From an uncultured virus (IMG/VR IMGVR_UViG_3300044956_000873) (Duplodnaviria; Heunggongvirae; Uroviricota; Caudoviricetes), in IMG/VR virus record IMGVR_UViG_3300044956_000873: a stretch of DNA of 64,000 nucleotides, one strand, 5' to 3'. The notes beneath the pieces were generated by a model, which saw only the letters and a program-made list of their open reading frames with translations, was not told the DNA's origin and made no database searches. Made by a program: the position numbers and the translations under genes. This document shows, piece by piece, positions 2,049 through 64,000 of the stretch; within the stretch, counting starts at the first letter, position 1; the number at the start of each line of letters is the position of its first letter.

Positions 2049-2702
2049 ATGGAGACAAAATTAGACACTAGTAAGATTATTCAAGTTCCTTTAGATAAAT
2101 CGCAATACTTCCAAGAAGAAGCGACAAAAAAACAAATTTACTTACACCATACCGCAGGCGGAGGAAACGCGAGGGCGGTTAGTCATTTTTGGAATAGTAA
2201 CGAAACACGGATAGCAACGGCATTCGTTATCGCGAATAACGGCGAAATAGTACAATGTTTTAGTTCTAAATATTGGGCTTGGCATTTAGGAATAGACGTT
2301 GAAGATTTTTCCCGCAACGGAGCGGCTTACCAAAATCTTAACAAAAGTTCGATAGGGATTGAAATTTGCAATTACGGAATGTTAAGATTTCGCAATGGTA
2401 AATACTATAATTACACGGGTGGAATAGTTGACGCAAAAAACGTTACTACCTTAACGCAACCATACAAGGGTTATATACATTGGGAAAAATACACCGATGC
2501 ACAAATTGAAAGTACGCGACAATTACTCGTTTACCTTTGCGACACGTATAAAATTCCCAAGGAATACCGAAGCGAGATTTTCCAAATAGACAAAGAAGCA
2601 TTTAAAGGAACTGCGGGAATTTTTACCCACAATTCAGTTCGTAAGGACAAATCGGATATTTACCCGTGTCCTAGAATGATCCAAATGCTCAAAAATTTAT
2701 AA
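2049..2702 (+). CDS. N-acetylmuramoyl-L-alanine amidase (Amidase_2 family)
   Basis: IYLHHTAG, AWHLG, SIGIEIC, THNSV..KSD motifs. Confidence 0.85.
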   Translation: METKLDTSKIIQVPLDKSQYFQEEATKKQIYLHHTAGGGNARAVSHFWNSNETRIATAFVIANNGEIVQCFSSKYWAWHLGIDVEDFSRNGAAYQNLNKSSIGIEICNYGMLRFRNGKYYNYTGGIVDAKNVTTLTQPYKGYIHWEKYTDAQIESTRQLLVYLCDTYKIPKEYRSEIFQIDKEAFKGTAGIFTHNSVRKDKSDIYPCPRMIQMLKNL

Positions 2703-2830: not shown

Positions 2831-3093
2831 CAGGAACGTAATTTGAATTCATATAATAATAAGAAAGACTCTTAGGAGTCTTTTTTTGTGACCAAAGCAT
2901 TAGCACATGCTAATACTATGCTAATACTACCGGAGGATCCTCAGGGAAACAAATAATACATCCATTATATTTGATGGGCCCCCCGGGGACGCGTGCGTAC
3001 GTATGCACGCGTAAGCACTTTTTTCAGAAATCATTTTTTTATTTGTAGAAAATTCTATACATTAGCTATGTTAATCAATCAAATAAATACAAA

Positions 3094-3657: not shown

Positions 3658-3954
3658 ATGAAAAACACAGAAAAAAAACCAGAAGCTAAAAAAACAGCTA
3701 AAGTTTCTAACAATCCTGATTGGATGACTTTGGATAAGTTCGAAATGAGTTTCGCTCACAAAGTTAGATTATTTAGAAATCTAAAATTGGAAATCACAAA
3801 TTCCTATTGCGCAAGCCCAGGAACTTCCCTAAAGTTTGAAAAAATCAAAAATGAAGACAATAAGATTATCTTCCGAGTTCGCCGCAATGGCCGACGCACC
3901 TTCTTCACCACCAACGCGGAACTCCAGGCGCCAGTTGAAATCTCCGCTGAATAA
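3658..3954 (+). CDS. Small basic hypothetical protein, paralog 3 of 3
   Basis: Own promoter (~3591) and terminator (3974); diverged copy of 1459..1770. Confidence 0.8.
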   Translation: MKNTEKKPEAKKTAKVSNNPDWMTLDKFEMSFAHKVRLFRNLKLEITNSYCASPGTSLKFEKIKNEDNKIIFRVRRNGRRTFFTTNAELQAPVEISAE

Positions 3955-18549: not shown

Positions 18550-19410
18550 ATGAGACAACTTAAGATCACATCGAGTATTACAATAAGAGAAGATAAATCT
18601 TTAGAAAAATATTTACAAGATATTTCCAAAGAGGAAATGATTACCGCAGATGAGGAAACATATTTAACTAGAAGAATAAAAGAAGGGGATCAAGAGGCTT
18701 TAGATAAAATGGTTAGGGCAAACTTAAGATTTGTTGTATCCGTTGCCAAGCAATATCAGCACCAAGGACTCCCTTTGATTGATCTAATAAACGAGGGGAA
18801 TGTGGGATTAATAAAAGCCGCTAAAAAATTCGACGAGACCAGGGGATTTAAATTTATATCGTACGCTGTTTGGTGGATCAGACAAGCAATAATGGAAGCT
18901 CTTTCGGAAAAAGCCAGAGTTATTAGAATCCCACTAAATCAGGTGGGGGTTTTAAGTAAAATAAACAAAGCATATGCTAGATTGGAGCAGGATCTAGGTA
19001 GAGCCCCATCCTCTCAAGAGATAGCAGATGAGCTAGATCTCCCGGAACAGAAAGTCAAAGACAGTTTAAGTAGCTCGAGAAATCATGTATCCTATGACGC
19101 TCCCGTGGGAGGTGACCAAGAAAATTCTCCGATGATAGAAGTACTAAGCAACGATTTCCCCTCGACAGATTCTCTAATGATAGAGGAATCATTAAGAGTT
19201 GATATTGAAAGAAGCCTCTCCGCCTTAGATCCTAAATGTAGAGAGATAATAAAATTAAACTATGGAATAGGATACACACATCCTAGATCATTAGATGAGA
19301 TTGGAGAAAAATACTCTTTGACTAAGGAAAGAGTAAGGCAGATCAGAGAAAAGGGTCTTAGAAAGCTAAGAGCTGAGTCTAGAAGCAAAATGCTAAAACA
19401 ATATCTCTAG
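18550..19410 (+). CDS. rpoD: RNA polymerase sigma-70 factor, Bacteroidota primary-sigma type
   Basis: MRQLKIT N-terminus, ANLRFVVSVAKQY, DLINEGNVGL, FISYAVWWIRQ, LTKERVRQI. Confidence 0.92.
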   Translation: MRQLKITSSITIREDKSLEKYLQDISKEEMITADEETYLTRRIKEGDQEALDKMVRANLRFVVSVAKQYQHQGLPLIDLINEGNVGLIKAAKKFDETRGFKFISYAVWWIRQAIMEALSEKARVIRIPLNQVGVLSKINKAYARLEQDLGRAPSSQEIADELDLPEQKVKDSLSSSRNHVSYDAPVGGDQENSPMIEVLSNDFPSTDSLMIEESLRVDIERSLSALDPKCREIIKLNYGIGYTHPRSLDEIGEKYSLTKERVRQIREKGLRKLRAESRSKMLKQYL

Positions 19411-38767: not shown

Positions 38768-39649
38768 ATGCGGGATTTTAAAATAATTAACAGGATAACT
38801 AATACTTCTGATAATCTAAACCGATACTTCAACGAAATATCAAAATATGAATTATTAAGTCCAGAGAAAGAGGCTGAACTTGCTTTTAAAGCTAAAGAAG
38901 GGGATGAAAAAGCTAAAGAAGCAATATTAAAATCTAATCTAAGATTTGTTATTTCTGTTGCAAAATCATATGTTTCTGACAACTCTCCCCTGGAAGATCT
39001 TATATCCGAAGGAAATAAAGGATTGGTAGAAGCAGTCGAAAACTTTGATCCTACTACCGGATTTAAATTCATTAGTTATGCTGTTTGGCATATCAGAAAA
39101 AACATACTTGTATATCTTAATAATCATACAAGATCCATAAGAATTCCCTCTAATGTAAATAATGAGATGAGAAAATATCATGCTATAGAGGAATCTTTTA
39201 TCTCTTATAATGGTTGGCAACCTTCAATAGATGAGATGCTAGAAATAATAGAAAATCCAGAATATGGTGTACAGATTTCTAACACTACAATAGAAACGAT
39301 TAAAAACACTCCGCTTTCTATTCCTCTTGAAAATTACGGAAAAGAAAATGATGGGATTAGCTCTCCATTAAGCTGGTTGCAATCATCTGAAAATAGTGAT
39401 GGAATAACACTAAACGACGATATTAGGAATATTATTATGAGGACCCTTTCTGAGTTAAAACCTATGGAGAGGGAAGTTACTATTTTGAAATACGGGCTTG
39501 GGAACTTAAAAGAACCTATGAGCTATAAAGCTATAGGGGAGAAGCTAGAAAAAACAACCGAATGGGCTAGGATTATTTCTAAGAAAGCTGAAATGAGGAT
39601 GAAGTCTATTATTAGAAGAAGAAAAATAAAAGAATTATTCTTCGATTAA
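38768..39649 (+). CDS. Second, more diverged sigma-70 (RpoD-like) factor
   Basis: SNLRFVISVAKSY, DLISEGNKGL, FISYAVWHIR; region 4.2 diverged (KTTEWARI). Confidence 0.88.
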   Translation: MRDFKIINRITNTSDNLNRYFNEISKYELLSPEKEAELAFKAKEGDEKAKEAILKSNLRFVISVAKSYVSDNSPLEDLISEGNKGLVEAVENFDPTTGFKFISYAVWHIRKNILVYLNNHTRSIRIPSNVNNEMRKYHAIEESFISYNGWQPSIDEMLEIIENPEYGVQISNTTIETIKNTPLSIPLENYGKENDGISSPLSWLQSSENSDGITLNDDIRNIIMRTLSELKPMEREVTILKYGLGNLKEPMSYKAIGEKLEKTTEWARIISKKAEMRMKSIIRRRKIKELFFD

Positions 39650-57198: not shown

Positions 57199-57268
57199 TC
57201 CGAAGCGGAATGGAGGGTTACTTCAATATTAGGAAAAAGAAAAAACACCCTTCATTAATATTCTCGGA
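57199..57268 (+). ncRNA. Y-RNA-like element 2
   Basis: TCCGA-AG / TT-C-TCGGA; AATGGAGGGT / ACCCTTCATT; GAAGCGG and TACTTCA. Confidence 0.8.
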
Positions 57269-57277
57269 TTTTAGAAC

Positions 57278-57354
57278 TGTTCCGAAGCGGGATTTTGAGA
57301 TACTTCATATATTGTTAGACTCTAAAAATCCTCGAAATCAATTTTCTCGGAACA
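57278..57354 (+). ncRNA. Y-RNA-like element 3
   Basis: TGTTCCGA-AG / TT-C-TCGGAACA; GATTTTGAG / CTCGAAATC; GAAGCGG and TACTTCA. Confidence 0.8.
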
Positions 57355-57360
57355 ACCACT

Positions 57361-57400
57361 AAGGGGTTTGGACGCTTAAGCGACCGAACCCCTTTTTTTT
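57361..57400 (+). terminator. Intrinsic terminator between the RNA array and the Ro60 gene
   Basis: GGGGTTTGG..CGC-TTAA-GCG..CCGAACCCC + T8. Confidence 0.8.
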
Positions 57401-57427
57401 ATTTTAGTAACTTTTTAAAACAACTAT

Positions 57428-59053
57428 ATGTCAAAGTTGAGTAATTACGCAGATAAAAAAACAGCAACGCAAATTGCGCAGAATTCAGTTTATGGATCTT
57501 TTGCAGTGGAGAACTTTATGGGGGGAACATCCTATGAGATCAATCCACTAGACAGATTAAGAATTGTAGCGGCTTCCTCTATATTTGGAGAACCGCAATA
57601 TTACCGTGACGGACTAAAAGCGCCTAGTAATCTTAGCACCCTTTCTAAATACTCAATATTTTCCCCGATGTATAAATCGGATTTAACCTCTGTTGAAATT
57701 TTTGAAAATGCGATAGACTCTGCCCTTGACTATGACTTTAAAGAAACCCTAGATCTTGCTTTAGAATTAAGAAATAAATTCTTTATGAGACTTAATCCTG
57801 CGTTTATATTCATAAGAGCATCACAGCACAGCAACAGAACAGGGTTTAACGAGAGTAACCCAGGATACATGAAAAATGTGGGTAAGAGTATTTCGCTTAG
57901 ACCTGATGATTTAACAAATCAATTTGAGTACTATATGTACAAGAATGCGGGTAAAAAGGGCCTTTCTTCTTTAGTTAAAAGAACATGGGCAGAAAAACTT
58001 GGTGAATTTAGCAGATATCAATTAAATAAGTACAAAGGGAAAAGACTAATAGACCTTGTACGTATATCTCACGCAAAAGGAGAGGACATTAATGAGTTAA
58101 TGTCCACTGGTACATTAAAATTAAAAGAGACTGAAAAAACCTGGGAAACCCTAAGATCCGAAGGAAAAACATGGAAGGAAATAACGGATACAATTCTTAT
58201 CCCTCATATGGCCTTGTTAAGAAACCTCAGAGGTATATTTACTGAGGTAGAAGATCGTACAATTACAGCGAGAATCTTATCCCAATTAAAATCCGGTGTT
58301 GAAAGTGGAAAACAATTTCCATTTAGATATTGGTCAGCCTTTAAGGCAGTACAAAATTCGGATATACACCACAAGCAGCTTGTTCTTGATACTCTGGAGG
58401 AGTGTTTAGATATTTCAGTAACTAATATGCCTAAATTAAAAGGGAAAACTGCTTGTCTTTCCGACAACTCCGGATCTGCTTGGGGATCTTTCAATAGCGA
58501 ATATGGAGCGGTTACTGTGGCGGAAATAGCTAACCTTTCATCATTAACAACTGCTTTACAATCCGATGAAGGTATTGTAGGAGTATTTGGTGACAATCTT
58601 TCATTAAAAGAAGTTTCTAAAAGAAATGGTATACTCACACAATTAGAGGAAACGTCTGAGAGGGGAAGACAACAAGGGGGCGGAACAGAAAATGGAATTT
58701 GGATTTTCTGGGACGAAGCTATAAAAAATAAAGTCCATTATGATAACGTTTTTATCTACTCGGATATGCAGGCTGGACACGGTGGGCTATATGGACACAG
58801 CAATACAGTAGGAAGTTCACCTTATGGGCATAGTGGTAAAGGTGACGTTCATGTAGACGTACTGGCAATGGTGCAGGAATATAGAAGAACAGTTAATCCT
58901 AAGGTTAATGTTTTCACTGTTCAAGTTGCGGGATACAACAACACAGTTCTACCAGAAAATCTTTATAGAGGTGCTATATTAGCTGGCTGGACGGGAAAAG
59001 AGCCATTATTTGCTAACGCCATAATAGAAGCTTGGGATTCTATAGAATCTTAA
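57428..59053 (+). CDS. rsr: Ro60/TROVE-domain RNA-binding protein with C-terminal vWA domain
   Basis: NFMGG, D..R..H, PHMALLRNLR, QFPFRY..A, DNSGS MIDAS, IYSDMQ; 541 aa. Confidence 0.88.
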   Translation: MSKLSNYADKKTATQIAQNSVYGSFAVENFMGGTSYEINPLDRLRIVAASSIFGEPQYYRDGLKAPSNLSTLSKYSIFSPMYKSDLTSVEIFENAIDSALDYDFKETLDLALELRNKFFMRLNPAFIFIRASQHSNRTGFNESNPGYMKNVGKSISLRPDDLTNQFEYYMYKNAGKKGLSSLVKRTWAEKLGEFSRYQLNKYKGKRLIDLVRISHAKGEDINELMSTGTLKLKETEKTWETLRSEGKTWKEITDTILIPHMALLRNLRGIFTEVEDRTITARILSQLKSGVESGKQFPFRYWSAFKAVQNSDIHHKQLVLDTLEECLDISVTNMPKLKGKTACLSDNSGSAWGSFNSEYGAVTVAEIANLSSLTTALQSDEGIVGVFGDNLSLKEVSKRNGILTQLEETSERGRQQGGGTENGIWIFWDEAIKNKVHYDNVFIYSDMQAGHGGLYGHSNTVGSSPYGHSGKGDVHVDVLAMVQEYRRTVNPKVNVFTVQVAGYNNTVLPENLYRGAILAGWTGKEPLFANAIIEAWDSIES

Positions 59054-59131
59054 TTTTTTACTATTTTTTTTAAAATACCTAGCGATAGGGATTTTTTGTG
59101 GTTTTTTTCTACAAATAAGATAAATACTTAT

Positions 59132-59383
59132 ATGAAAATAATAAAAACATACGAGAACTATAATGTTATAGACATGGGAATGAACGAGCCTGTAAAAAAA
59201 TACGGTGAACCCTATCCATTAACTAATCTTAAGAGAGGCGATAAAGTAACATACTTGGGTACGTCTTTTATAGTAGATAAAGTAGACGAGTACACATTAT
59301 TATTAAAATCTGTAGAAGATGGATCTGCTTTAAGGGTAAATCAGAACATGTTTAATCAGAGAGGATTTATTGGGCCTCGTTAA
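59132..59383 (+). CDS. Small protein with leader MKIIKTYENY
   Basis: Start after GATAAATA. Confidence 0.7.
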   Translation: MKIIKTYENYNVIDMGMNEPVKKYGEPYPLTNLKRGDKVTYLGTSFIVDKVDEYTLLLKSVEDGSALRVNQNMFNQRGFIGPR

Positions 59384-59576
59384 TATTTCAAATTATGGAA
59401 GAAGAAATTAAGATATTAAATATCCTATCAGAAAAAACAAAAAACGATATAAGGATGTTTGTTACTAATAGCTCTATATCAGAAGATCCTGAAAGAAAAA
59501 AGAAATTTTACGATATTATCCAAAGGGTAATAGTTGAATCCTCATTGAGGACAAAAGATAAAATAAACCTTAAATA

Positions 59577-59722
59577 ATGGCAAAAATTAAATCTCTAGAC
59601 TCTTAAAAAAATCACATAAGAAAACCTAGAAAAAAAGACCGGGCATACATTCTAAATGTAAAACAAGTGTTAGTAAGAATGCTAAACACTATAAAAAACC
59701 TTATAGATCTTAAGGTAGATAA
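59577..59722 (+). pseudogene. Degraded small basic protein ending KKPYRS*GR
   Basis: Two TAA stops plus a frameshift. Confidence 0.45.
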
Positions 59723-59745
59723 AAGGATATATAAAATAAAAAAAA

Positions 59746-60129
59746 ATGAGACACCTTAGAATATACGAAAGCTTCGTTAGAGAAGTAGAAATGGATCCGG
59801 TAGTCATGGCAGAACCTAATATGGAGACAATGTCAAGCGATATGGAGAATGGTAGCTTCGAAGCAGAATCTACAGATTTCGTTTCAACTCCAGAAGGACA
59901 AGAAGGTGATTATATAGTAAAATTTATTAATCCGGAGGGAGAGGAAGTAACCGTTACAGTAGGATATGCAATAGATCCAGAGTACATGGGGAAAAAGATG
60001 ATTAGTGCTATAGAAATGATTCCAGATTCAAGCTCTGATGGTAGACAATATTCATTTATAGGATACTATGACGAAATTCCGGGATCCGCAGGAGCTTATG
60101 AACTTAAAAAGGTTTTAATTGAGGGATAA
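59746..60129 (+). CDS. Acidic protein with leader MRHLRIYESF
   Basis: GGATATATA upstream. Confidence 0.8.
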   Translation: MRHLRIYESFVREVEMDPVVMAEPNMETMSSDMENGSFEAESTDFVSTPEGQEGDYIVKFINPEGEEVTVTVGYAIDPEYMGKKMISAIEMIPDSSSDGRQYSFIGYYDEIPGSAGAYELKKVLIEG

Positions 60130-60131
60130 TA

Positions 60132-60416
60132 ATGTCTATAAAAATATATTCAGGCTATGATGAATTTAAATATGAAGAGCCTGAATTGTGTGATTGCATA
60201 GATATAGAAGATGATTCCTATGAGGAAGAGCAAGAAGAATCGAGTGACCTTTTTTTCTATTACACAAAAACATTAGATTTTATAGATTCTTCAACTTTTT
60301 ATGTTGTATCAGATATGCAGGACGAAGAAAATGCAGAAAATATATCAGGATACCTAGGAAAATTCAAAAGAAAGTATCTCCCAGATTTTCATAAAGTATT
60401 GTTCTGTGTAAGCTAA
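60132..60416 (+). CDS. Acidic hypothetical protein
   Basis: ORF track. Confidence 0.6.
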   Translation: MSIKIYSGYDEFKYEEPELCDCIDIEDDSYEEEQEESSDLFFYYTKTLDFIDSSTFYVVSDMQDEENAENISGYLGKFKRKYLPDFHKVLFCVS

Positions 60417-60422
60417 TATAAA

Positions 60423-61355
60423 ATGGAAAAAATACTAGATTTTAAAGAATTTTCTCTTTTTGAAGCAGAGGTTACAGAAAGTAAATCTGCCATTTTCGAT
60501 CTAGAAAATAATCTAGCATATCAAACAATAAAAGATTTAAGAACTGCAACTATCAACGGGAAGGAATATACATTTATATGTGTAGGTAGCGGTATGAGCA
60601 CTTACGCAGAATCTGTAGCTAAGACAGATAAAAAAATAGGGGACATAATTTCAAAGATGGCTTCTAAAAAAGACCAAACTCTTGTTTTCTCTGATTCTGG
60701 AATATATGTTATGTCTGAAGCTGCAGGTAATGGTATTATAACTATGGCTTCATCTATATTTTCTTATGTAAAGGAAGGATCTATAACCGCTGGAATTAGC
60801 GTTATTTATACCTTTAAAAAAATAAACATCTATTACAAAAATAAGGGAGAAGAGACTTTTAATAATATTAAAGAAAATTCATCTGAGATTTTTAAAATCA
60901 TTATGAAGGACCTTTATAAGCTATCGGAAGAATCTCCTAAAGCTTCAGAAGCTGTATCTGTTCTAGTAGTTGGAGCATATAAATCATCGACATCATCATT
61001 TAAAACAATACCAGATTTTTTAAATGATTGTATTTATAAAACAGCGAAAGACTCAGAAATAAGATCTGTAAATATAGGACAGGGAATAGATGATTTTTAT
61101 AAGGTGTCACAAAATACCCTAGACAATCTAAACGTTCCTATAAATAAAACAATAGAGGAGGGAATAGAAAAGCTTTCTTCTGTAATAGAAAAGGGAGTAA
61201 GAAAGACCGAGATATTTTCAGCAAGACTTAGAAAAGAAGCTGGAGAGTCATTAAGGAAATTACAAAATAGAATAGCACCCACTGCAAAAATCATATTATC
61301 TAAAAGCAAACCTATTTGGGATTCTATAAGCGGAAAGAAAAAAAAAACCAATTAG
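60423..61355 (+). CDS. Helical hypothetical protein with leader; paralog of 61385..62539
   Basis: Shared YTF...G.GM..YAE, GIYV..EA..NG....ASSIF.Y.K.G. Confidence 0.8.
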   Translation: MEKILDFKEFSLFEAEVTESKSAIFDLENNLAYQTIKDLRTATINGKEYTFICVGSGMSTYAESVAKTDKKIGDIISKMASKKDQTLVFSDSGIYVMSEAAGNGIITMASSIFSYVKEGSITAGISVIYTFKKINIYYKNKGEETFNNIKENSSEIFKIIMKDLYKLSEESPKASEAVSVLVVGAYKSSTSSFKTIPDFLNDCIYKTAKDSEIRSVNIGQGIDDFYKVSQNTLDNLNVPINKTIEEGIEKLSSVIEKGVRKTEIFSARLRKEAGESLRKLQNRIAPTAKIILSKSKPIWDSISGKKKKTN

Positions 61356-61384
61356 GATATATACATTATAAATAAAAAAACAAA

Positions 61385-62539
61385 ATGTCAAGAATACTAT
61401 CATTTAGCGATTTCAACGAACTAAACGAGGGTTATAGCTTTAACAGCAGCGAATATAATTTCGAGAACCATTCAAGTTACGTTGAATTAACAGAATCTGA
61501 AATGTTATCATTTATTAACGATGCCATTTACGAACAAGGTCCAGCAGGAAACACTGTAAAAGGCGGATTATTTGATGTTAACGATAAGAACGTGTACAAT
61601 ACAGTTAAAGCCGTAAAAACTGCAGTTATACAAGGAGCTCGGTACACATTTCTTACTATCGGAGCTGGTATGAAAGCTTATGCTGAGGCTCGGAAAAAAG
61701 TTTCAGTTTCTACCGGAGAGGCATTACTAAACCTAGCAAAATTTACAGGAAAGGTCGTTATATTTACTGCTGCAGGTATTTATGTTGTAACAGAAGCAAT
61801 TGCTAATGGATTATTTTCATTAGCATCATCAATATTTGGATATGCTAAGAAAGGAGCTATGGCAGTAGGATCTACTATTGTTACTGCAATGAAAAATGTT
61901 AATGATTACTTTAAAAAATTAGGTAAAGCAGTATTTAATACAATTAAAAATGATGCCTTAGCAGTAGCTAAAGCTTTTATGACAGGCTTATACAAAGTTG
62001 CTAATTTAGCAACTAAAGCATTTCAAGCAGTTGCAGCTTTAACAGTTGCAGCTTACAAAATAGCTAAAACAGCTTTTAAAGGAATTGCTAATTTTGCAGC
62101 AGAATGTATATACGGAGCAGCTAAAGCAGCTAAAATGATAGCAATTAAAATAGGAAACGACATTTCAGATTTTTATAATGCTTCGGTATCTTCATTTAAA
62201 AAAAATAAGGATGCTATTGTAAAAACAACAAAAGATGGATTTGACGCAGTAGCAAACACAATTAAAGCTGGAGTTCAAAAAACTGAAAAAGTTGCTAACA
62301 AGATAAAAACTGCGGCTGGTAATGCTCTTAAGACAGCTCAGAACAAAATTGTTAACACAGGAAAAGAAATACTTTCAATTGGATCCGCTATATGGGGGGG
62401 TATTTGGGATCATGAGATTTACCAAGGAACATCCGAAGATATATTCGAATCGTATATTATTGTTGAGGGACAAAAATATTATGTACCAGTTGAATCATAC
62501 GATGATTACGATTTAGAAGTTTTTGGATCGCAATATTAA
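61385..62539 (+). CDS. Ala/Lys-rich amphipathic helical protein with leader; paralog of 60423..61355
   Basis: GGATATATA upstream; alignable to its neighbour. Confidence 0.8.
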   Translation: MSRILSFSDFNELNEGYSFNSSEYNFENHSSYVELTESEMLSFINDAIYEQGPAGNTVKGGLFDVNDKNVYNTVKAVKTAVIQGARYTFLTIGAGMKAYAEARKKVSVSTGEALLNLAKFTGKVVIFTAAGIYVVTEAIANGLFSLASSIFGYAKKGAMAVGSTIVTAMKNVNDYFKKLGKAVFNTIKNDALAVAKAFMTGLYKVANLATKAFQAVAALTVAAYKIAKTAFKGIANFAAECIYGAAKAAKMIAIKIGNDISDFYNASVSSFKKNKDAIVKTTKDGFDAVANTIKAGVQKTEKVANKIKTAAGNALKTAQNKIVNTGKEILSIGSAIWGGIWDHEIYQGTSEDIFESYIIVEGQKYYVPVESYDDYDLEVFGSQY

Positions 62540-63032
62540 GATGTCCTAGGGAAAAAATCCCCAAGAATATACCTATTAAATGACCCCAGTGTGATACTCC
62601 ATCGGGGTCATTTAGTGTAACAAGCTCTCCTAAACCTATTATAGCTAAAATTGGTATAAATATCTTTCTATAATCTAATAGAAATCTAGTAAGCATAAGA
62701 TAAACCAGTCCTGATATACCAATAGATACTGATATTCCTAATGCACACGTAAGTAAAAAAGTAATACACTGGATTATTATAGTTATCAAAACTATTTGTT
62801 TTAAATCATATTTATTTCCTTTATATAGAAGAAAAAGAAATATAGCAATAATATTAAAAACAAAATGTAATAGAGATTGGTGTATAAATCCACTAATAAA
62901 AGGCATAGATATAGCAAGATCTGCATTTCCTCCTAGGATTAGCATAGTAATTAATCCCACCGGATAAGCGAGTACGCATACGCCTATAATTTTTAATGTC
63001 TCTATCGCGGATCTTCTTAAATTATCTTTCAT
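62457..63032 (-). CDS. Rhomboid-family intramembrane serine protease
   Basis: FIH...HFVFN, SIGISG catalytic Ser motif, VSHWGHLIG catalytic His. Confidence 0.8.
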   Translation of the reverse strand: MKDNLRRSAIETLKIIGVCVLAYPVGLITMLILGGNADLAISMPFISGFIHQSLLHFVFNIIAIFLFLLYKGNKYDLKQIVLITIIIQCITFLLTCALGISVSIGISGLVYLMLTRFLLDYRKIFIPILAIIGLGELVTLNDPDGVSHWGHLIGIFLGIFSLGHLNIAIQKLLNRNHRMIQLVHNIFVPQQ

Positions 63033-63090
63033 AATATTTGTTTTGTTATGCAATTATAGAAAAAAGTGAAAAATACAAAAAAAGATTACG

Positions 63091-63294
63091 AATCATTTTT
63101 TGTATCAATAAAAATAGCCTATATTTGTGAAACAAAACAAAAGGAACAATATATAACACTTAAATAAACAAATTAATTAACATAATACCCTCTATATTAA
63201 GACCGTCGATAAGACGATCCCCAAAGGTCCTATGTTAGTTTTAACTATAACTATAAACTAAAAACCGGGGCCTTTAAAAAGTCCCGGTTTTTTT
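63091..63294 (+). promoter_or_regulatory. Promoter + candidate attenuator leader upstream of the tRNA cluster
   Basis: AATCATTTTTT and TATATTTG (63120); terminator CCGGGGC/GTCCCGG + T7 (63265-63294); AAAGGTCCT (63223-63231) can pair with GGGGCCTTT (63267-63275). Confidence 0.6.
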
Positions 63295-63329
63295 ATGTTC
63301 TTTGAAATATTGGTTAAATAAAATTATAA

Positions 63330-63417
63330 GGAGGATTAAACCATAATTGGTACTGGCGCAGTCTTGAAAACTATTCATCGTGCAAACGATGTGTAGATTC
63401 GAGTCCTACATCCTCCG
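63330..63417 (+). tRNA. tRNA-Ser(TGA), slightly degenerate
   Basis: GGAGGAT/ATCCTCC acceptor, long variable arm, CT-TGA-AA loop; C.A mismatches in the anticodon and T stems. Confidence 0.8.
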
Positions 63418-63422
63418 CTCAT

Positions 63423-63494
63423 GGGTCCATAGTTAAAGGGATATAACCCTAGCCTTCTAAGCTTGTATTCCTGGTTCGAGTCCAGGTGGACCTA
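63423..63494 (+). tRNA. tRNA-Arg(TCT)
   Basis: GGGTCCA/TGGACCT acceptor, CT-TCT-AA loop, CCTGG-TTCGAGT-CCAGG. Confidence 0.88.
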
Positions 63495-63541
63495 CATACC
63501 GCCCTCTACCTAGCGCTGGGTATGGATCGAAGATAAACCAT

Positions 63542-63769
63542 ATGGATCACGTCCCTAATGGTATGAAGGGTAAAAGACATTCTAAAGAATCTAAAGAAAA
63601 AATGGCTTTAAATAACACTAATAAATTAAGTCATTCTGAAATAATCAATAGGATAAATGATATTAAAAATGAGAATAATAAATGGGGCTATATAATTAGA
63701 CTATCAAAAAAATGCAAGGTCAGTCACACCCAAGTTAAAAGATTCATAAAAAAATATTTAGAGACGTAG
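63542..63769 (+). pseudogene. NUMOD3/HTH remnant of a homing endonuclease inside the tRNA cluster
   Basis: GMKGKRHSKESKEKM NUMOD3 motif; no nuclease domain. Confidence 0.6.
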
Positions 63770-63833
63770 CTCAATTGGTTAGAGCACATGCCTTATACGC
63801 ATGCGGTCATGGGTTCGACTCCCATCGTCTCTA
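63760..63833 (+). tRNA. tRNA with TAT anticodon (Ile-UAU)
   Basis: AGAGACG/CGTCTCT acceptor, CATGC-CT-TAT-AC-GCATG, ATGGG-TTCGACT-CCCAT. Confidence 0.85.
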
Positions 63834-63837
63834 CTTA

Positions 63838-63910
63838 GGTCCCTTAGCTTAGTCGGTTAGGACGTTAGGTTTTCATCCTAGAAAGAGGGGTTCGATTCCC
63901 CCAGAGACTA
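63838..63910 (+). tRNA. tRNA-Glu(TTC), one acceptor mismatch
   Basis: TTAGG-TT-TTC-AT-CCTAG, GGGG-TTCGATT-CCCC. Confidence 0.75.
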
Positions 63911-64000
63911 CTACAACTGGTACCCTTGAGAAACTCGTATTTAAAGATAAGCAGTGTGGTATAAAAGATAAAATCATTAATTTTTTGAAATAAGGGAGTG

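What the first reader, a model, noticed from the sequence alone, without database searches (positions are those of the whole stretch)
63164..63294. Candidate codon-sensing attenuator controlling a phage tRNA cluster
Seen: between the promoter (63120) and the tRNAs lies a 24-codon frame (63164-63238; ATA AAC AAA TTA ATT AAC ATA ATA CCC TCT ATA TTA AGA CCG TCG ATA AGA CGA TCC CCA AAG GTC CTA TGT TAG). It has five ATA, two AGA and three TCN codons, those read by the downstream Ile(TAT), Arg(TCT) and Ser(TGA) tRNAs. Its 3' end (AAAGGTCCT, 63223-63231) can pair with the 5' arm of the terminator (GGGGCCTTT, 63267-63275), or alternatively with upstream sequence (GACC/GGTC; AATTAACATA/TATGTTAGTT): classical 1:2, 2:3, 3:4 logic. 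Inference: tRNA genes switch on only when ribosomes stall for lack of host tRNA, e.g. after anticodon-nuclease defence. Caveats: the frame begins with ATA, not ATG, and ATA/AGA are common in AT-rich DNA.
Basis: partly seen in the sequence, partly recalled or inferred. Interest (0 to 1): 0.72.

Follow-up and report, generated by a model that had tools for sequence, protein, structure and literature searches.

The report
Start-codon-less attenuator before phage tRNAs
A short "test gene" plus a switchable transcription stop sits in front of this lake phage's tRNA genes; related phages carry an intact copy that looks built to switch the tRNA genes on when their codons are read slowly, but in this phage the test gene has lost its start codon.

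Summary

The decisive evidence comes from relatives. Twenty other contig records of uncultured lake phages carry the same module: conserved promoter block, leader, terminator, tRNA block. Nineteen have ATG exactly where this window has ATA. The frame stays open. Codons 7-20 vary almost only among codons read by the tRNAs that follow (Ser-UGA, Arg-UCU, Pro-UGG, Ile-UAU, Leu-UAA).

A paralogous second leader lies 2.9 kb beyond the window's end. It has an intact ATG and is spelled in the codons of its own tRNA block (Trp, Cys, Arg-ACG, Gln, Ser-AGY).

The family therefore looks like a ribosome-mediated attenuator for tRNA genes. I found no paper on this; earlier notes of this scan report it on other DNA.

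This window's copy is a derived variant. ATG became ATA, two further unique substitutions weaken the antiterminator, and the tRNA block behind it is eroded. It is probably no longer translation-responsive.

Weak points: no compensatory covariation, no expression data, and equilibrium folding supports the switch in only one subfamily. Whether the start-less copy is stuck off or on is unresolved.

The parts
63070..63135 (+). Conserved upstream block with the putative promoter: T-rich/TTTG at 63099-63102, TAnnTTTG (TATATTTG) at 63121-63128, and GAAACAA at the likely transcript start.
   Evidence: It is shared almost base for base with the paralogous leader 2 and with all relatives. The exact TTTGTGAAACAA occurs only once in the 64-kb window. 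It is not a sigma-70 consensus match. No transcript start has been mapped, so the promoter is an inference.
63164..63238 (+). Leader frame: 24 sense codons plus TAG, beginning with ATA (ATG in relatives). Peptide if read: INKLINIIPSILRPSIRRSPKVLC.
   Evidence: Position 63166 is A here, in the possible source run and in a second lake run. It is G in a relative's contig and in 19 of 20 related contig records.
63177..63191 (+). Region 1: 5' strand of helix P1, the anti-antiterminator. It lies inside codons 5-10.
   Evidence: RNAalifold consensus, columns 49-56 and 59-63 of A2, and the MFE of the window. All pairs are invariant or vary on one side only, so there is no covariation.
63201..63219 (+). 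Small invariant hairpin GA-CCGUC-GAUAA-GACG-AUC inside codons 13-19. It may be an RNA polymerase pause hairpin; that is inference only.
   Evidence: The 20-nt core AGACCGTCGATAAGACGATC is identical in 10 of 11 aligned sequences, third codon positions included.
63223..63241 (+). Region 2: the 3' end of the ORF including the stop codon. It can pair either with region 1 (P1) or with region 3 (antiterminator).
   Evidence: The window-specific A at 63232 (G in 10 of 10 others) turns a G-C antiterminator pair into A.C and a U.G pair of P1 into U-A.
63255..63275 (+). Region 3: AAACTAA (63255-63261) plus CGGGGCCTTT (63266-63275), the partner of region 2. It overlaps the 5' arm of the terminator.
   Evidence: The window-specific G at 63270 (A in 10 of 10 others) turns a U-A pair into U.G.
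63260..63294 (+). Intrinsic terminator: stem 63260-63271 with 63281-63292, a 9-nt loop, and a run of 7 T at 63288-63294.
   Evidence: segment -16.3 kcal/mol.
63288..63308 (+). Conserved box after the terminator, TTTTTTTATGTTCTTTGAAAT. Function unknown.
   Evidence: It is shared by leader 1, leader 2 and relatives, although the two leader ORFs are otherwise unrelated.
63330..63416 (+). tRNA-like gene with a UGA (Ser) anticodon loop and a long extra arm. It is non-canonical.
   Evidence: Rfam tRNA-Sec model 32.2 bits, below the gathering score of 47. ARAGORN misses it. It is 61% identical to the relatives' tRNA-Ser(TGA) and 82% identical to a slot in tRNA clusters of Vibrio phages.
63423..63495 (+). 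tRNA-Arg(TCT).
   Evidence: 57.1 bits. It is only 73% identical to the relatives' Arg(TCT), so it is probably a replacement by a foreign gene with the same anticodon.
63542..63769 (+). 75-aa ORF lodged between tRNA genes. It is probably a remnant of a homing endonuclease.
   Evidence: phrog_16521, E 3.2e-14, matching only positions 101-166 of a 178-position profile. Its end overlaps the start of tRNA-Ile.
63760..63834 (+). tRNA-Ile(TAT).
   Evidence: 74.6 bits. It is 97% identical to the relative's gene; the two differences fall in the 5' and 3' strands of the acceptor stem and by my reading form a compensatory pair.
63838..63911 (+). tRNA-Glu(TTC).
   Evidence: 41 bits. It is 91% identical to the relative's gene.

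Best explanation
What it is. The stretch 63070-63308 is this phage's copy of a conserved module: promoter block, short leader ORF, competing hairpins, intrinsic terminator. In a clade of uncultured freshwater giant phages this module heads the first block of tRNA genes. The hosts are probably Bacteroidota, because the phage genes lack Shine-Dalgarno sites and the promoter fits TAnnTTTG.

How the intact form should work. In relatives the module has the anatomy of a ribosome-mediated (leader-peptide) attenuator.
- A ribosome that reads the 24-codon ORF quickly reaches the stop codon and covers region 2. Region 3 is then free to form the terminator with region 4, and the tRNA genes stay off.
- A ribosome held up at the sensor codons (ATA, TTA, CCN, TCN, AGA, which are the codons of the Ile-UAU, Leu-UAA, Pro-UGG, Ser-UGA and Arg-UCU tRNAs that follow) leaves region 2 free. 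Region 2 pairs with region 3 and blocks the terminator.
- A second, paralogous leader does the same for the second tRNA block, using a complementary set of codons.

This window's copy. The start codon is mutated (ATG to ATA) and the antiterminator is weakened by two further substitutions, so this copy is probably uncoupled from translation. I think it mostly terminates, with some leak. That would make a leader RNA of about 165 nt and give only basal read-through into an already eroded tRNA block.

Shown: homology, the ATG in relatives, the codon match, the complementarities and the terminator. Inferred: translation of the leader, the switch itself, and the state of the start-less copy.
For: Homology and start codon.
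- The module is shared with 20 other contig records, giving 14 further distinct leader sequences.
- ATG sits at the position of 63164 in 19 of these 20 records; L030 has a 5' deletion.
- A contig from a further run also has G at 63166.
- In leader 2 of the same phage, ATG aligns with the window's ATA in the same register from the promoter.

Reading frame.
- Frame 0 has no internal stop in the 24-codon forms.
- Three subfamily members end at codon 19 through a 1-nt deletion.
- Across the same span, frame +1 has 2-5 stops and frame +2 has 0-1.
- Leader 2 shows an in-frame 3-nt deletion. Six of its variable codon columns are synonymous-only (five sense codons and the stop codon) and 4 change the residue or make a stop.

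Codon match.
- The tRNA order behind leader 1 is Ser(tga), Arg(tct), Pro(tgg), Ile(tat), Met, Leu(taa). Behind leader 2 it is Phe, Lys, Trp, Arg(acg), Cys, Ser(gct), Ile(gat), Val, Asn, Tyr, Gly, Ala, Met, His, Thr, Gln.
- Own block against other block, Fisher p: 3.4e-5, 8.4e-6 and 1.2e-4 in three relatives, and 2.2e-4 in this phage (leader 1: 9 own, 2 other; leader 2: 0 and 10).
- Random draws from the phage's coding usage reach the observed match in 1 of 20,000 trials for this phage.
- In codon columns 7-20, 125 of 137 cells are block-1 codons. Of 14 variant codons, 12 stay in that set, against 7.0 expected (p 0.006).

Structure.
- Antiterminator columns 95-104 with 139-148 are paired in 96% of cells, against 20-65% when the partner is slid by 1-3 columns.
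- Segment energies in relatives: 1:2 is -13 to -20, 2:3 is -14 to -20, and 3:4 is -13 to -18 kcal/mol.
- With a ribosome mask on L008, the antiterminator has probability 0.82-0.99 at A-site codons 3-15, and the terminator has probability 1.00 from codon 16 to the stop and 0.94 with no ribosome.
- In transcripts cut before the 3' arm of the terminator, the antiterminator disappears once the A site is at codon 19 or later, in 6 of 6 leaders tested.
- The estimated barrier from the P1 state to the antiterminator state is 8.1-14.8 kcal/mol.

Impairment of this copy.
- A at 63166, A at 63232 and G at 63270 are each unique to the window among 11 aligned sequences.
- The 2:3 segment is -15.2 kcal/mol here, against -19.7 in the near relative L010.
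- Antiterminator probability is 0.00 at all 25 ribosome positions.
- The ATA is present in two runs, so it is not an assembly slip.

Translation context and array erosion.
- The lack of a Shine-Dalgarno site is normal here: 0 of 55 phage ORFs have GGAG or GAGG upstream, and their upstream regions are A-rich and G-poor like the leader's.
- The contig of this phage has 7 tRNA hits in 49.5 kb. A relative has 28 hits (27 over the cut-off) in 61 kb.
Against: - No helix has a compensatory double change: 0 of 29 pairs, 0 of 54 and 0 of 11. The paired stretches are simply invariant, which fits any RNA- or DNA-level constraint.
- Equilibrium folding of full-length leaders favours the antiterminator clearly only in the L008 subfamily. 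It reaches at most 0.30 in L010, and at most 0.13 in the window's leader 2 and 0.01 in L011's.
- In truncated transcripts the antiterminator forms even with no ribosome (0.98-1.00). 'No translation gives termination' therefore rests on a kinetic trap that I only estimated. If that trap fails, the start-less copy would be constitutively ON rather than OFF.
- Two natural leaders without a start, this one and L030, still keep the core, region 2 and the terminator. The RNA could therefore have a role that does not need translation.
- 8 of 23 leader-1 codons in relatives belong to block-2 tRNAs.
- The tRNA genes behind this leader are intact, and ATA and AGA are the phage's commonest Ile and Arg codons. 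That sits badly with a block locked off.
- There is no mapped transcript start and no read-through measurement. The only RNA evidence is one metatranscriptome contig of a relative (157 nt, depth 2.6) that runs from the leader across the terminator into tRNA-Arg.
- Relatives were fished with exact promoter or core patterns, so they are close kin and the statistics across genomes are not independent.
Confidence: 0.6

Rival explanations
1. One reading: this copy is a working codon-sensing attenuator. Translation starts at the AUA (or the in-frame AUU at codon 5), perhaps because start-codon rules are laxer in the Shine-Dalgarno-less host.
For: Apart from the start codon the frame is intact and still carries ATA x5, AGA x2 and TCN x3. 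P1, the antiterminator complementarity (9 bp) and the terminator are all present. The tRNA genes behind it are intact. The ATA is fixed in two runs.
Against: No in-frame ATG, GTG or TTG exists. AUA and AUU initiate at 1-2% of AUG in E. coli (10.1101/063800, passages read). 19 of 20 relatives keep ATG. The antiterminator is 4.5 kcal/mol weaker than in L010 and is never populated at equilibrium.
Confidence: 0.12
2. The conserved leader is not an attenuator. It is a small gene of its own, either a regulatory RNA of about 165 nt or a 19-24-residue peptide, ended by an ordinary terminator. The tRNA genes are then made by leak-through or from another promoter, and the codon match is a by-product of AT-rich composition.
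For: The anatomy (promoter, structured RNA, U-rich spacer, strong terminator) is that of a typical small RNA. The core is invariant at all three codon positions. There is no covariation for the alternative helices. The copies without a start (window, L030) keep the RNA. The terminator is favoured at equilibrium in most leaders.
Against: Two paralogous leaders with unrelated peptides share the same layout, with the stop codon inside region 2. Each leader is spelled in the codons of its own tRNA block, including GC-richer codons in leader 2, so composition alone does not explain the match. ATG and the open frame are conserved. Region 2 mimics the 3' arm of the terminator in both leaders. The peptide's C-terminus is dispensable, as the 19-codon forms show. 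There is no room for a promoter between the terminator and the first tRNA, about 35 nt.
Confidence: 0.15
3. The start-less copy is locked ON. With no ribosome to cover region 2, the antiterminator forms as soon as region 3 is made, and the tRNA block is transcribed constitutively. The ATG-to-ATA change would then be an adaptive de-repression.
For: In transcripts cut before the 3' arm of the terminator, the antiterminator has probability 0.98 in the window with no ribosome. The window has one of the lowest P1-to-antiterminator barriers, 9.8 kcal/mol. ATA and AGA are the phage's commonest Ile and Arg codons, and the Ile and Arg tRNA genes are intact.
Against: At full length, P1 plus terminator is the ground state, with terminator probability 1.00. 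A barrier near 10 kcal/mol should outlast the less than 1 s that the polymerase needs; that rate estimate is mine. The two extra window-specific substitutions weaken the antiterminator rather than strengthen it. From memory, not seen in any paper here: start-codon mutants of the E. coli trp leader terminate more.
Confidence: 0.1
4. Chance: an open frame in AT-rich intergenic DNA that happens to sit next to an ordinary bidirectional terminator.
For: Within this window alone, 1.2% of all 24-codon windows match the four tRNAs as well. The frame has no start codon.
Against: Conservation of the whole module, the ATG and the frame in 19 of 20 relatives; the reciprocal codon match of two leaders; and the complementarity of region 2 with region 3.
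Confidence: 0.03

Closest known systems
Leader-peptide (ribosome-mediated) transcription attenuators of amino-acid operons in bacteria (trpL, hisL, thrL, ilvL, leuL, pheL). Recalled from textbooks; the abstracts listed for PMC3082878 and PMC6614838 were seen.
   Same: A short ORF close to the promoter, written in the codons that report on the regulated product. The stop codon lies inside region 2. Helices 1:2, 2:3 and 3:4 are mutually exclusive, and 3:4 is an intrinsic terminator. The sensor is multivalent, as in the thr and ilv leaders.
   Different: The regulated genes are tRNAs, not enzymes. What is sensed would be decoding capacity per isoacceptor (ATA against ATY, AGA against CGN, TCN against AGY) rather than amino-acid supply. 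The sensor has no runs of one codon but a mix of 5-16 codon classes. It is phage-borne, comes as two paralogous copies that split the code, and has no Shine-Dalgarno site. No Rfam leader model matches: Thr_leader 17.4 bits against 55, L20_leader 23.9 against 58.7. This window's copy lacks the start codon.
Start-codon mutants of the E. coli trp leader (AUG to AUA). Recalled only: the search for 'trpL29' returned only unrelated Drosophila papers.
   Same: The same base change in the same functional position. It is a natural counterpart of the classical mutant that uncouples attenuation from translation.
   Different: Here it arose in nature and appears in contigs of two lake runs (the possible source run and one other). 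Its effect is unmeasured, and the default state of this leader (terminate or read through) is unresolved.
pyrBI-type attenuation, where a ribosome close behind the polymerase blocks the terminator. Recalled from memory.
   Same: The outcome depends on where the leading ribosome is when the terminator is transcribed. My truncated-transcript folds suggest that ribosome position relative to region 2 is the main determinant.
   Different: In pyrBI the ribosome physically prevents the terminator and no antiterminator helix is needed. Here the ribosome at the ORF's end would do the opposite: it would mask an antiterminator.
T-box riboswitches, which sense tRNA directly.
   Same: A leader with a terminator/antiterminator choice that reports on tRNA status.
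   Different: A T-box needs no translation and has Stem I with a specifier loop and a tRNA-acceptor-binding bulge. No T-box or other riboswitch model matched at E up to 10, and this leader is only about 165 nt with a conserved ORF.
Earlier notes of this scan on other genomes: 'leader-peptide attenuators gating phage tRNA arrays' (e1-5768875 and others).
   Same: The same proposed system. e1-5768875 shares sequence words with this stretch and describes two leaders that split the code by isoacceptor, which is what I found independently in relatives fetched here.
   Different: Those notes describe leaders with start codons. This window holds a start-less, weakened copy behind an eroded array.

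Membership tests
Leader-peptide (ribosome-mediated) transcription attenuator | Short ORF with a usable start codon soon after the transcript start | tested here: not met
   The window has ATA at 63164 and no in-frame ATG, GTG or TTG. The feature is met in 19 of 20 related contig records and in leader 2 of the same phage.
Leader-peptide (ribosome-mediated) transcription attenuator | Leader codons enriched for those that report on the regulated genes | tested here: met
   Window: leader 1 has 9 own-block and 2 other-block codons, leader 2 has 0 and 10; Fisher p 2.2e-4, and 1 of 20,000 random draws does as well. Relatives: p 8e-6 to 1e-4. In codon columns 7-20, 125 of 137 cells are block-1 codons.
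Leader-peptide (ribosome-mediated) transcription attenuator | Intrinsic terminator between the leader ORF and the regulated genes | tested here: met
   A 12-bp stem plus a run of 7 T at 63260-63294. It is conserved in all 11 aligned leaders.
Leader-peptide (ribosome-mediated) transcription attenuator | Antiterminator helix that shares a strand with the terminator and involves the 3' end of the ORF | tested here: met
   63223-63232 pairs with 63266-63275: 9 bp in the window, 10-11 bp in relatives, 96% of cells paired. The 2:3 segment is -15.2 kcal/mol in the window and -14 to -20 in relatives. The support is complementarity only; there is no covariation.
Leader-peptide (ribosome-mediated) transcription attenuator | Outcome depends on ribosome position (stall gives read-through; completion or no translation gives termination) | tested here: inconclusive
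   Masked-ribosome folding gives the textbook profile in L008, a weak one in L010 and none in the window or in leader 2. Truncated transcripts show region 2 masked from codon 19 on, but the antiterminator also forms with no ribosome. The barrier estimate is 8-15 kcal/mol.
Leader-peptide (ribosome-mediated) transcription attenuator | Read-through shown to depend on leader translation | not testable with these tools
   This needs reporter assays, in vitro transcription-translation or term-seq. The only data are one RNA contig of a relative that spans the terminator.
Rfam leader and riboswitch families (Thr_leader, L20_leader, T-box and others) | Score at or above the family's gathering threshold | tested here: not met
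   Thr_leader 17.4 bits against 55; L20_leader 23.9 against 58.7; no T-box hit at E up to 10.
Stand-alone small RNA gene | Own promoter and terminator, with no conserved translated frame | tested here: not met
   A promoter block and a terminator are present, but relatives conserve an ATG-started open frame.

The most novel reading that the evidence does not exclude
A clade of freshwater giant phages measures the cell's decoding capacity with two paralogous leader peptides that divide the genetic code by isoacceptor: ATA, AGA, TCN, TTA and CCN in one; ATY, CGN, AGY, Trp, Cys, Gln and others in the other. Each leader gates its own tRNA array by ribosome-mediated attenuation. This window preserves a natural start-codon knock-out of one sensor together with erosion and piecemeal replacement of the array behind it. 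Sensor and array would then evolve as one unit.
Probability: 0.45. Interest if true: 0.85.

Novelty: new variant of a known kind. Interest (0 to 1): 0.68.

Why it matters
Why phages carry tRNA genes is still debated: to match their own codon usage, to keep translating after host shut-off, or to escape tRNA-cutting defences. How those genes are regulated is largely unknown.

A leader peptide written in the codons of the tRNAs behind it would mean the phage makes each tRNA set on demand, using the ribosome as the sensor. That is the logic of the trp operon applied to the decoding machinery itself.

The module is small enough to test directly with reporter fusions. The start-less copy in this window and the ATG copies in its relatives form a ready-made natural control pair.

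I found no paper describing this in three full-text searches (listings and abstracts only). Earlier notes of this scan report the same idea on other genomes.

Tried and rejected
- Rfam scan of 62000-64000 at E up to 10. Only tRNAs and sub-threshold noise (Thr_leader, L20_leader, several sRNA families); no riboswitch or T-box.
- Sigma-70 promoter and simple terminator scan. Nothing at the leader. There were 17 promoter-like sites against 19.0 expected, and the terminator was missed because of its 9-nt loop.
- Search for relatives in cultured phages. blastn of 62000-64000 matched only tRNA genes. tblastn with the neighbouring rhomboid-like protein found nothing. The Dda-like helicase is at most 31% identical to any record. 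No cultured relative exists in that collection.
- Exact-pattern scans of IMG/VR with the terminator, with the tRNA junction and with the rhomboid protein. All returned only the phage's own contig.
- No whole genome is held for the window.
- Covariation: none in any helix.
- Enrichment of TAnnTTTG upstream of phage genes. None: 0.49 per kb upstream against 0.61 per kb overall. The motif supports a promoter only through its conservation.
- Equilibrium switch for leader 2: not supported.
- A 9-codon ORF, 63232-63261, whose ATG is created by the window-specific G-to-A change (GTG in relatives) and which ends at the foot of the terminator. I considered it as a rewired leader but judged it compatible with chance.
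- RNA evidence. The single metatranscriptome run held only contigs of relatives at low depth. It gave no cover of this phage's leader and no transcript ends.
- Literature. 'trpL29' gave only unrelated fly papers, so the statement about trp leader start-codon mutants is from memory.
- 23 of the 42 metagenome loci from the promoter pattern were unrelated sequences and were dropped.
Full report
**1. What is in the window**

- It has 24 sense codons, preceded by an in-frame TAA and ended by TAG.
- It holds ATA x5, AGA x2 and TCN x3.
- It has no in-frame ATG, GTG or TTG, and the ORF listing finds no + strand ORF of 20 aa or more between 63168 and 63300.

Downstream lies a strong intrinsic terminator: stem 63260-63271 with 63281-63292, a 9-nt loop and seven T.
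- The 171-nt leader folds at -32.3 kcal/mol, z -3.34, and none of 200 shuffles does as well.
- The proposed AAAGGTCCT/GGGGCCTTT pairing is possible: 9 bp, two of them G-U.
- The GACC/GGTC pairing is not used in any fold.

ARAGORN and Rfam confirm tRNA-Arg(TCT), Ile(TAT) and Glu(TTC). The 'Ser(TGA)' at 63330-63416 is only tRNA-like: it matches the tRNA-Sec model at 32.2 bits, below the threshold of 47, and ARAGORN is silent.

The gene upstream (62457-63035, minus strand) is a rhomboid-like membrane protein that diverges from the leader.

**2. Is the codon content more than chance?**

Judged from this window alone, only modestly.
- Against the phage's own coding usage, 10 of 24 codons matching the four downstream tRNAs gives p 0.018.
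- 1.2% of all 24-codon windows in six frames do as well. Without Glu the figures are p 8e-4 and 0.37%.
- ATA (4.8% of codons) and AGA (2.7%) are the phage's commonest Ile and Arg codons, not rare ones.

**3. A second leader in the same phage**

An IMG/VR contig is 100% identical to window 57262-64000 and runs 5.3 kb further. There, 2.9 kb past the window's end, a second tRNA block (Trp, Arg-ACG, Cys, Gln, plus a Ser-GCT-like element) follows a second leader.

The two leaders share about 65 nt of upstream sequence almost base for base, including TTTGTGAAACAA, which occurs exactly once in the window. They also share a box after the terminator.

Leader 2 has a clean ATG and 35 codons (MKNCSKHNITRMKSQINGCYQTVAFWAKGKKPDRS). 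Its ATG aligns with the window's ATA, in the same register from the promoter.

**4. Relatives**

No cultured phage is close. Scans with the shared promoter pattern and with the leader core found the following.
- 8 other IMG/VR contigs.
- 42 metagenome loci, of which 12 carry leader 1, 7 carry leader 2 and 23 are unrelated and were dropped.

Altogether 20 contig records other than the phage's own carry leader 1, giving 14 further distinct sequences. Some records are probably the same population filed twice.
- 19 of the 20 have ATG where the window has ATA. L030 has lost the 5' half of the ORF by deletion.
- A contig of one further run also reads G at 63166. The possible source run and a second lake run both read A, so the ATA is real.
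- The frame stays open. It has 24 codons, or 19 in one subfamily through a 1-nt deletion that creates TAA. Across the same span, frame +1 has 2-5 stops and frame +2 has 0-1.

**5. The leaders match their tRNA blocks**

In relatives the tRNA order is as follows.
- Behind leader 1: Ser(tga), Arg(tct), Pro(tgg), Ile(tat), Met, Leu(taa), then Glu, Asp and Met.
- Behind leader 2: Phe, Lys, Trp, (Tyr), Arg(acg), Cys, Ser(gct), Ile(gat), Val, Asn, Tyr, Gly, Ala, Met, His, Thr, Gln.

Codons 7-20 of leader 1 read ATA TTA CCT NNN ATA TTA AGA CCG TCG ATA AGA CGA TCT CTA.
- 125 of 137 cells in these columns are codons of the block-1 tRNAs.
- Where the columns vary they swap among ATA, TTA and TCN. Of 14 variant codons, 12 stay in the set, against 7.0 expected from random single-base neighbours (p 0.006).

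Leader 2 holds codons for the block-2 tRNAs, and the isoacceptors are split between the two leaders: ATA against ATY, AGA against CGN, TCN against AGY.

Own-block against other-block counts give Fisher p 3.4e-5, 8.4e-6 and 1.2e-4 in three relatives. In this phage p is 2.2e-4 (leader 1: 9 and 2; leader 2: 0 and 10). Random draws from coding usage reach the observed match in 0-9 of 20,000 trials.

These genomes are related, so the tests are not independent. The background usage for relatives was taken from this window's genes.

Leader 2 shows six synonymous-only variable columns (five sense codons and the stop codon) against four with a residue change or stop, and one in-frame 3-nt deletion.

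**6. The RNA switch**

The consensus fold has these elements.
- P1: A2 columns 49-63 with 96-110, which is window 63177-63191 with 63224-63238.
- A small invariant hairpin at 63201-63219.
- The terminator.

Region 2 (63223-63232, the ORF's last codons) is complementary to region 3 (63266-63275, the 5' arm of the terminator plus its loop).
- The pairing is 10-11 bp in relatives. 96% of cells are paired, against 20-65% when the partner is slid by 1-3 columns.
- An inner extension (GTTAGTTT with AAACTAA) adds to it.

Segment energies in relatives are -13 to -20 (1:2), -14 to -20 (2:3) and -13 to -18 kcal/mol (3:4).

Leader 2 has the same design: ATCGAAGC at the end of the ORF against GCTTCGAT in the terminator.

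Folding with a masked ribosome gave mixed results.
- L008 shows the textbook profile. The antiterminator has probability 0.82-0.99 with the A site at codons 3-15, and the terminator has probability 1.00 from codon 16 and 0.94 with no ribosome.
- L010 reaches at most 0.30, and leader 2 almost nothing.
- In transcripts cut before the 3' arm of the terminator, the antiterminator is present until the A site reaches about codon 18 and is gone from codon 19 to the stop, in 6 of 6 leader-1 sequences. The same happens from codon 31-32 in 3 of 3 leader-2 sequences. But it also forms with no ribosome at all.
- Termination without translation therefore depends on P1 acting as a kinetic trap. My direct-path barrier estimates are 8.1-14.8 kcal/mol, which should outlast the polymerase's transit. 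That is an estimate, not a simulation.
- No helix shows a compensatory change.

**7. Could the leader be translated at all?**

The phage's genes have no Shine-Dalgarno sites. None of 55 ORFs has GGAG or GAGG upstream, against 5.8% at random positions, and their upstream regions are A-rich and G-poor. The relatives' leader ATG sits in just such a context.

Together with the TAnnTTTG box this points to a Bacteroidota-type host. That motif assignment is recalled from the literature, and TAnnTTTG is not enriched before phage genes in general.

**8. What is special about this window's copy**

Three substitutions are unique to it among the 11 aligned leaders.
- 63166, G to A: destroys the start codon.
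- 63232, G to A: breaks a G-C pair of the antiterminator and tightens P1.
- 63270, A to G: turns a U-A antiterminator pair into U.G.

The 2:3 segment drops to -15.2 kcal/mol, against -19.7 in the near relative L010. The antiterminator is never populated at equilibrium. AUA starts translation at 1-2% of AUG in E. coli (bioRxiv 10.1101/063800, passages read).

The arrays are also eroded.
- This phage's 49.5-kb contig holds 7 tRNA hits. A relative's 61-kb contig holds 28, of which 27 pass the cut-off.
- Pro, Met and Leu(taa) are gone from block 1.
- Ser and Arg(tct) are only 61% and 73% identical to the relatives' genes, so they are probably replacements with the same anticodons. Ile(tat) and Glu are orthologous at 97% and 91%.
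- A homing-endonuclease remnant sits between Arg and Ile.

The only other start-less leader, L030, has lost the whole Ser-to-Leu set. All 14 ATG-bearing loci with enough flank keep Ser-Arg-Pro-Ile-Met, and 13 of them also keep Leu(taa). This is suggestive, with n = 2.

**9. Verdict**

- The family is best read as a leader-peptide attenuator for tRNA genes. That is a known mechanism applied to a new kind of target.
- This copy is a natural start-codon mutant. I think it mostly terminates (confidence about 0.6 for the whole reading), but a constitutively read-through state cannot be excluded.
- Three literature searches found no description of such control (listings and abstracts only).
- Earlier notes of this scan describe the same system on other DNA. 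One of them led me to look for the second leader.

Noticed in passing
window 57428-59053 (+): A 541-aa protein with a TROVE (Ro60-like) domain (Pfam PF05731, E 3.7e-8; phrog_850 'RNA-binding protein', E 7.6e-43), 4 kb upstream of the tRNA cluster. Ro60 proteins bind Y RNAs, some of which are tRNA-like. No Y-RNA family matched in 62000-64000.
   Followed up: partly
window 63330-63416 (+): A non-canonical tRNA-like gene with a UGA anticodon loop and a long extra arm. ARAGORN misses it. It is 82% identical to an unannotated slot between annotated tRNAs in several Vibrio phages. It seems to be a mobile, unusual tRNA-Ser-like gene.
   Followed up: partly
window 63288-63308, and L001 about 3005-3030 (-): A conserved box right after the terminator T run (TTTTTATGTTCTTTGAAAT). 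Both leaders and all relatives share it, although the leader ORFs are unrelated. Its function is unknown; it may be a processing site or may pair with the 5' leader (GGAAC with GUUC).
   Followed up: no
window 63232-63261 (+): The window-specific G-to-A change at 63232 turns the relatives' GTG into ATG. This opens a 9-codon ORF (two ATA, two TTA) whose stop codon abuts the foot of the terminator. It may well be chance.
   Followed up: partly
window 63542-63769 (+); L001 1747-2235 (-): A 75-aa ORF matching only the C-terminal part of phrog_16521 sits between tRNA-Arg and tRNA-Ile and overlaps the start of tRNA-Ile. A full HNH endonuclease gene lies further down the tRNA region. Homing endonucleases seem to be remodelling the arrays.
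   Followed up: partly
window 62457-63035 (-): A rhomboid-family membrane protein encoded by a phage (PF01694, E 1.3e-8). tblastn found no homologue in 50,697 phage records.
   Followed up: partly
window 18550-19410 and 38768-39649 (+): Two sigma-70-family genes (phrog_351, E 1.9e-68 and 1.8e-44). The phage may redirect transcription, yet the tRNA leaders carry a host-like TAnnTTTG box.
   Followed up: no
L030 (metagenome contig of 152 kb), leader at 2375-2507 (-): A second natural start-less leader. The first half of the ORF is deleted, and the Ser-Arg-Pro-Ile-Met-Leu tRNAs behind it are replaced by an ORF. The core, region 2 and the terminator are kept.
   Followed up: partly
L001 about 3783-3796 (window-equivalent about 65495-65508, beyond the window's end): A run of a dozen or more G between two divergent genes inside the tRNA region.
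   Followed up: no
run X23 (RNA), relative of window 63277-63495: A 157-nt metatranscriptome contig of a relative runs from the leader spacer across the terminator and straight into tRNA-Arg, without the 107 nt that hold the Ser-like gene here. It is a weak hint of read-through transcripts and of a variant array without the first gene.
   Followed up: no
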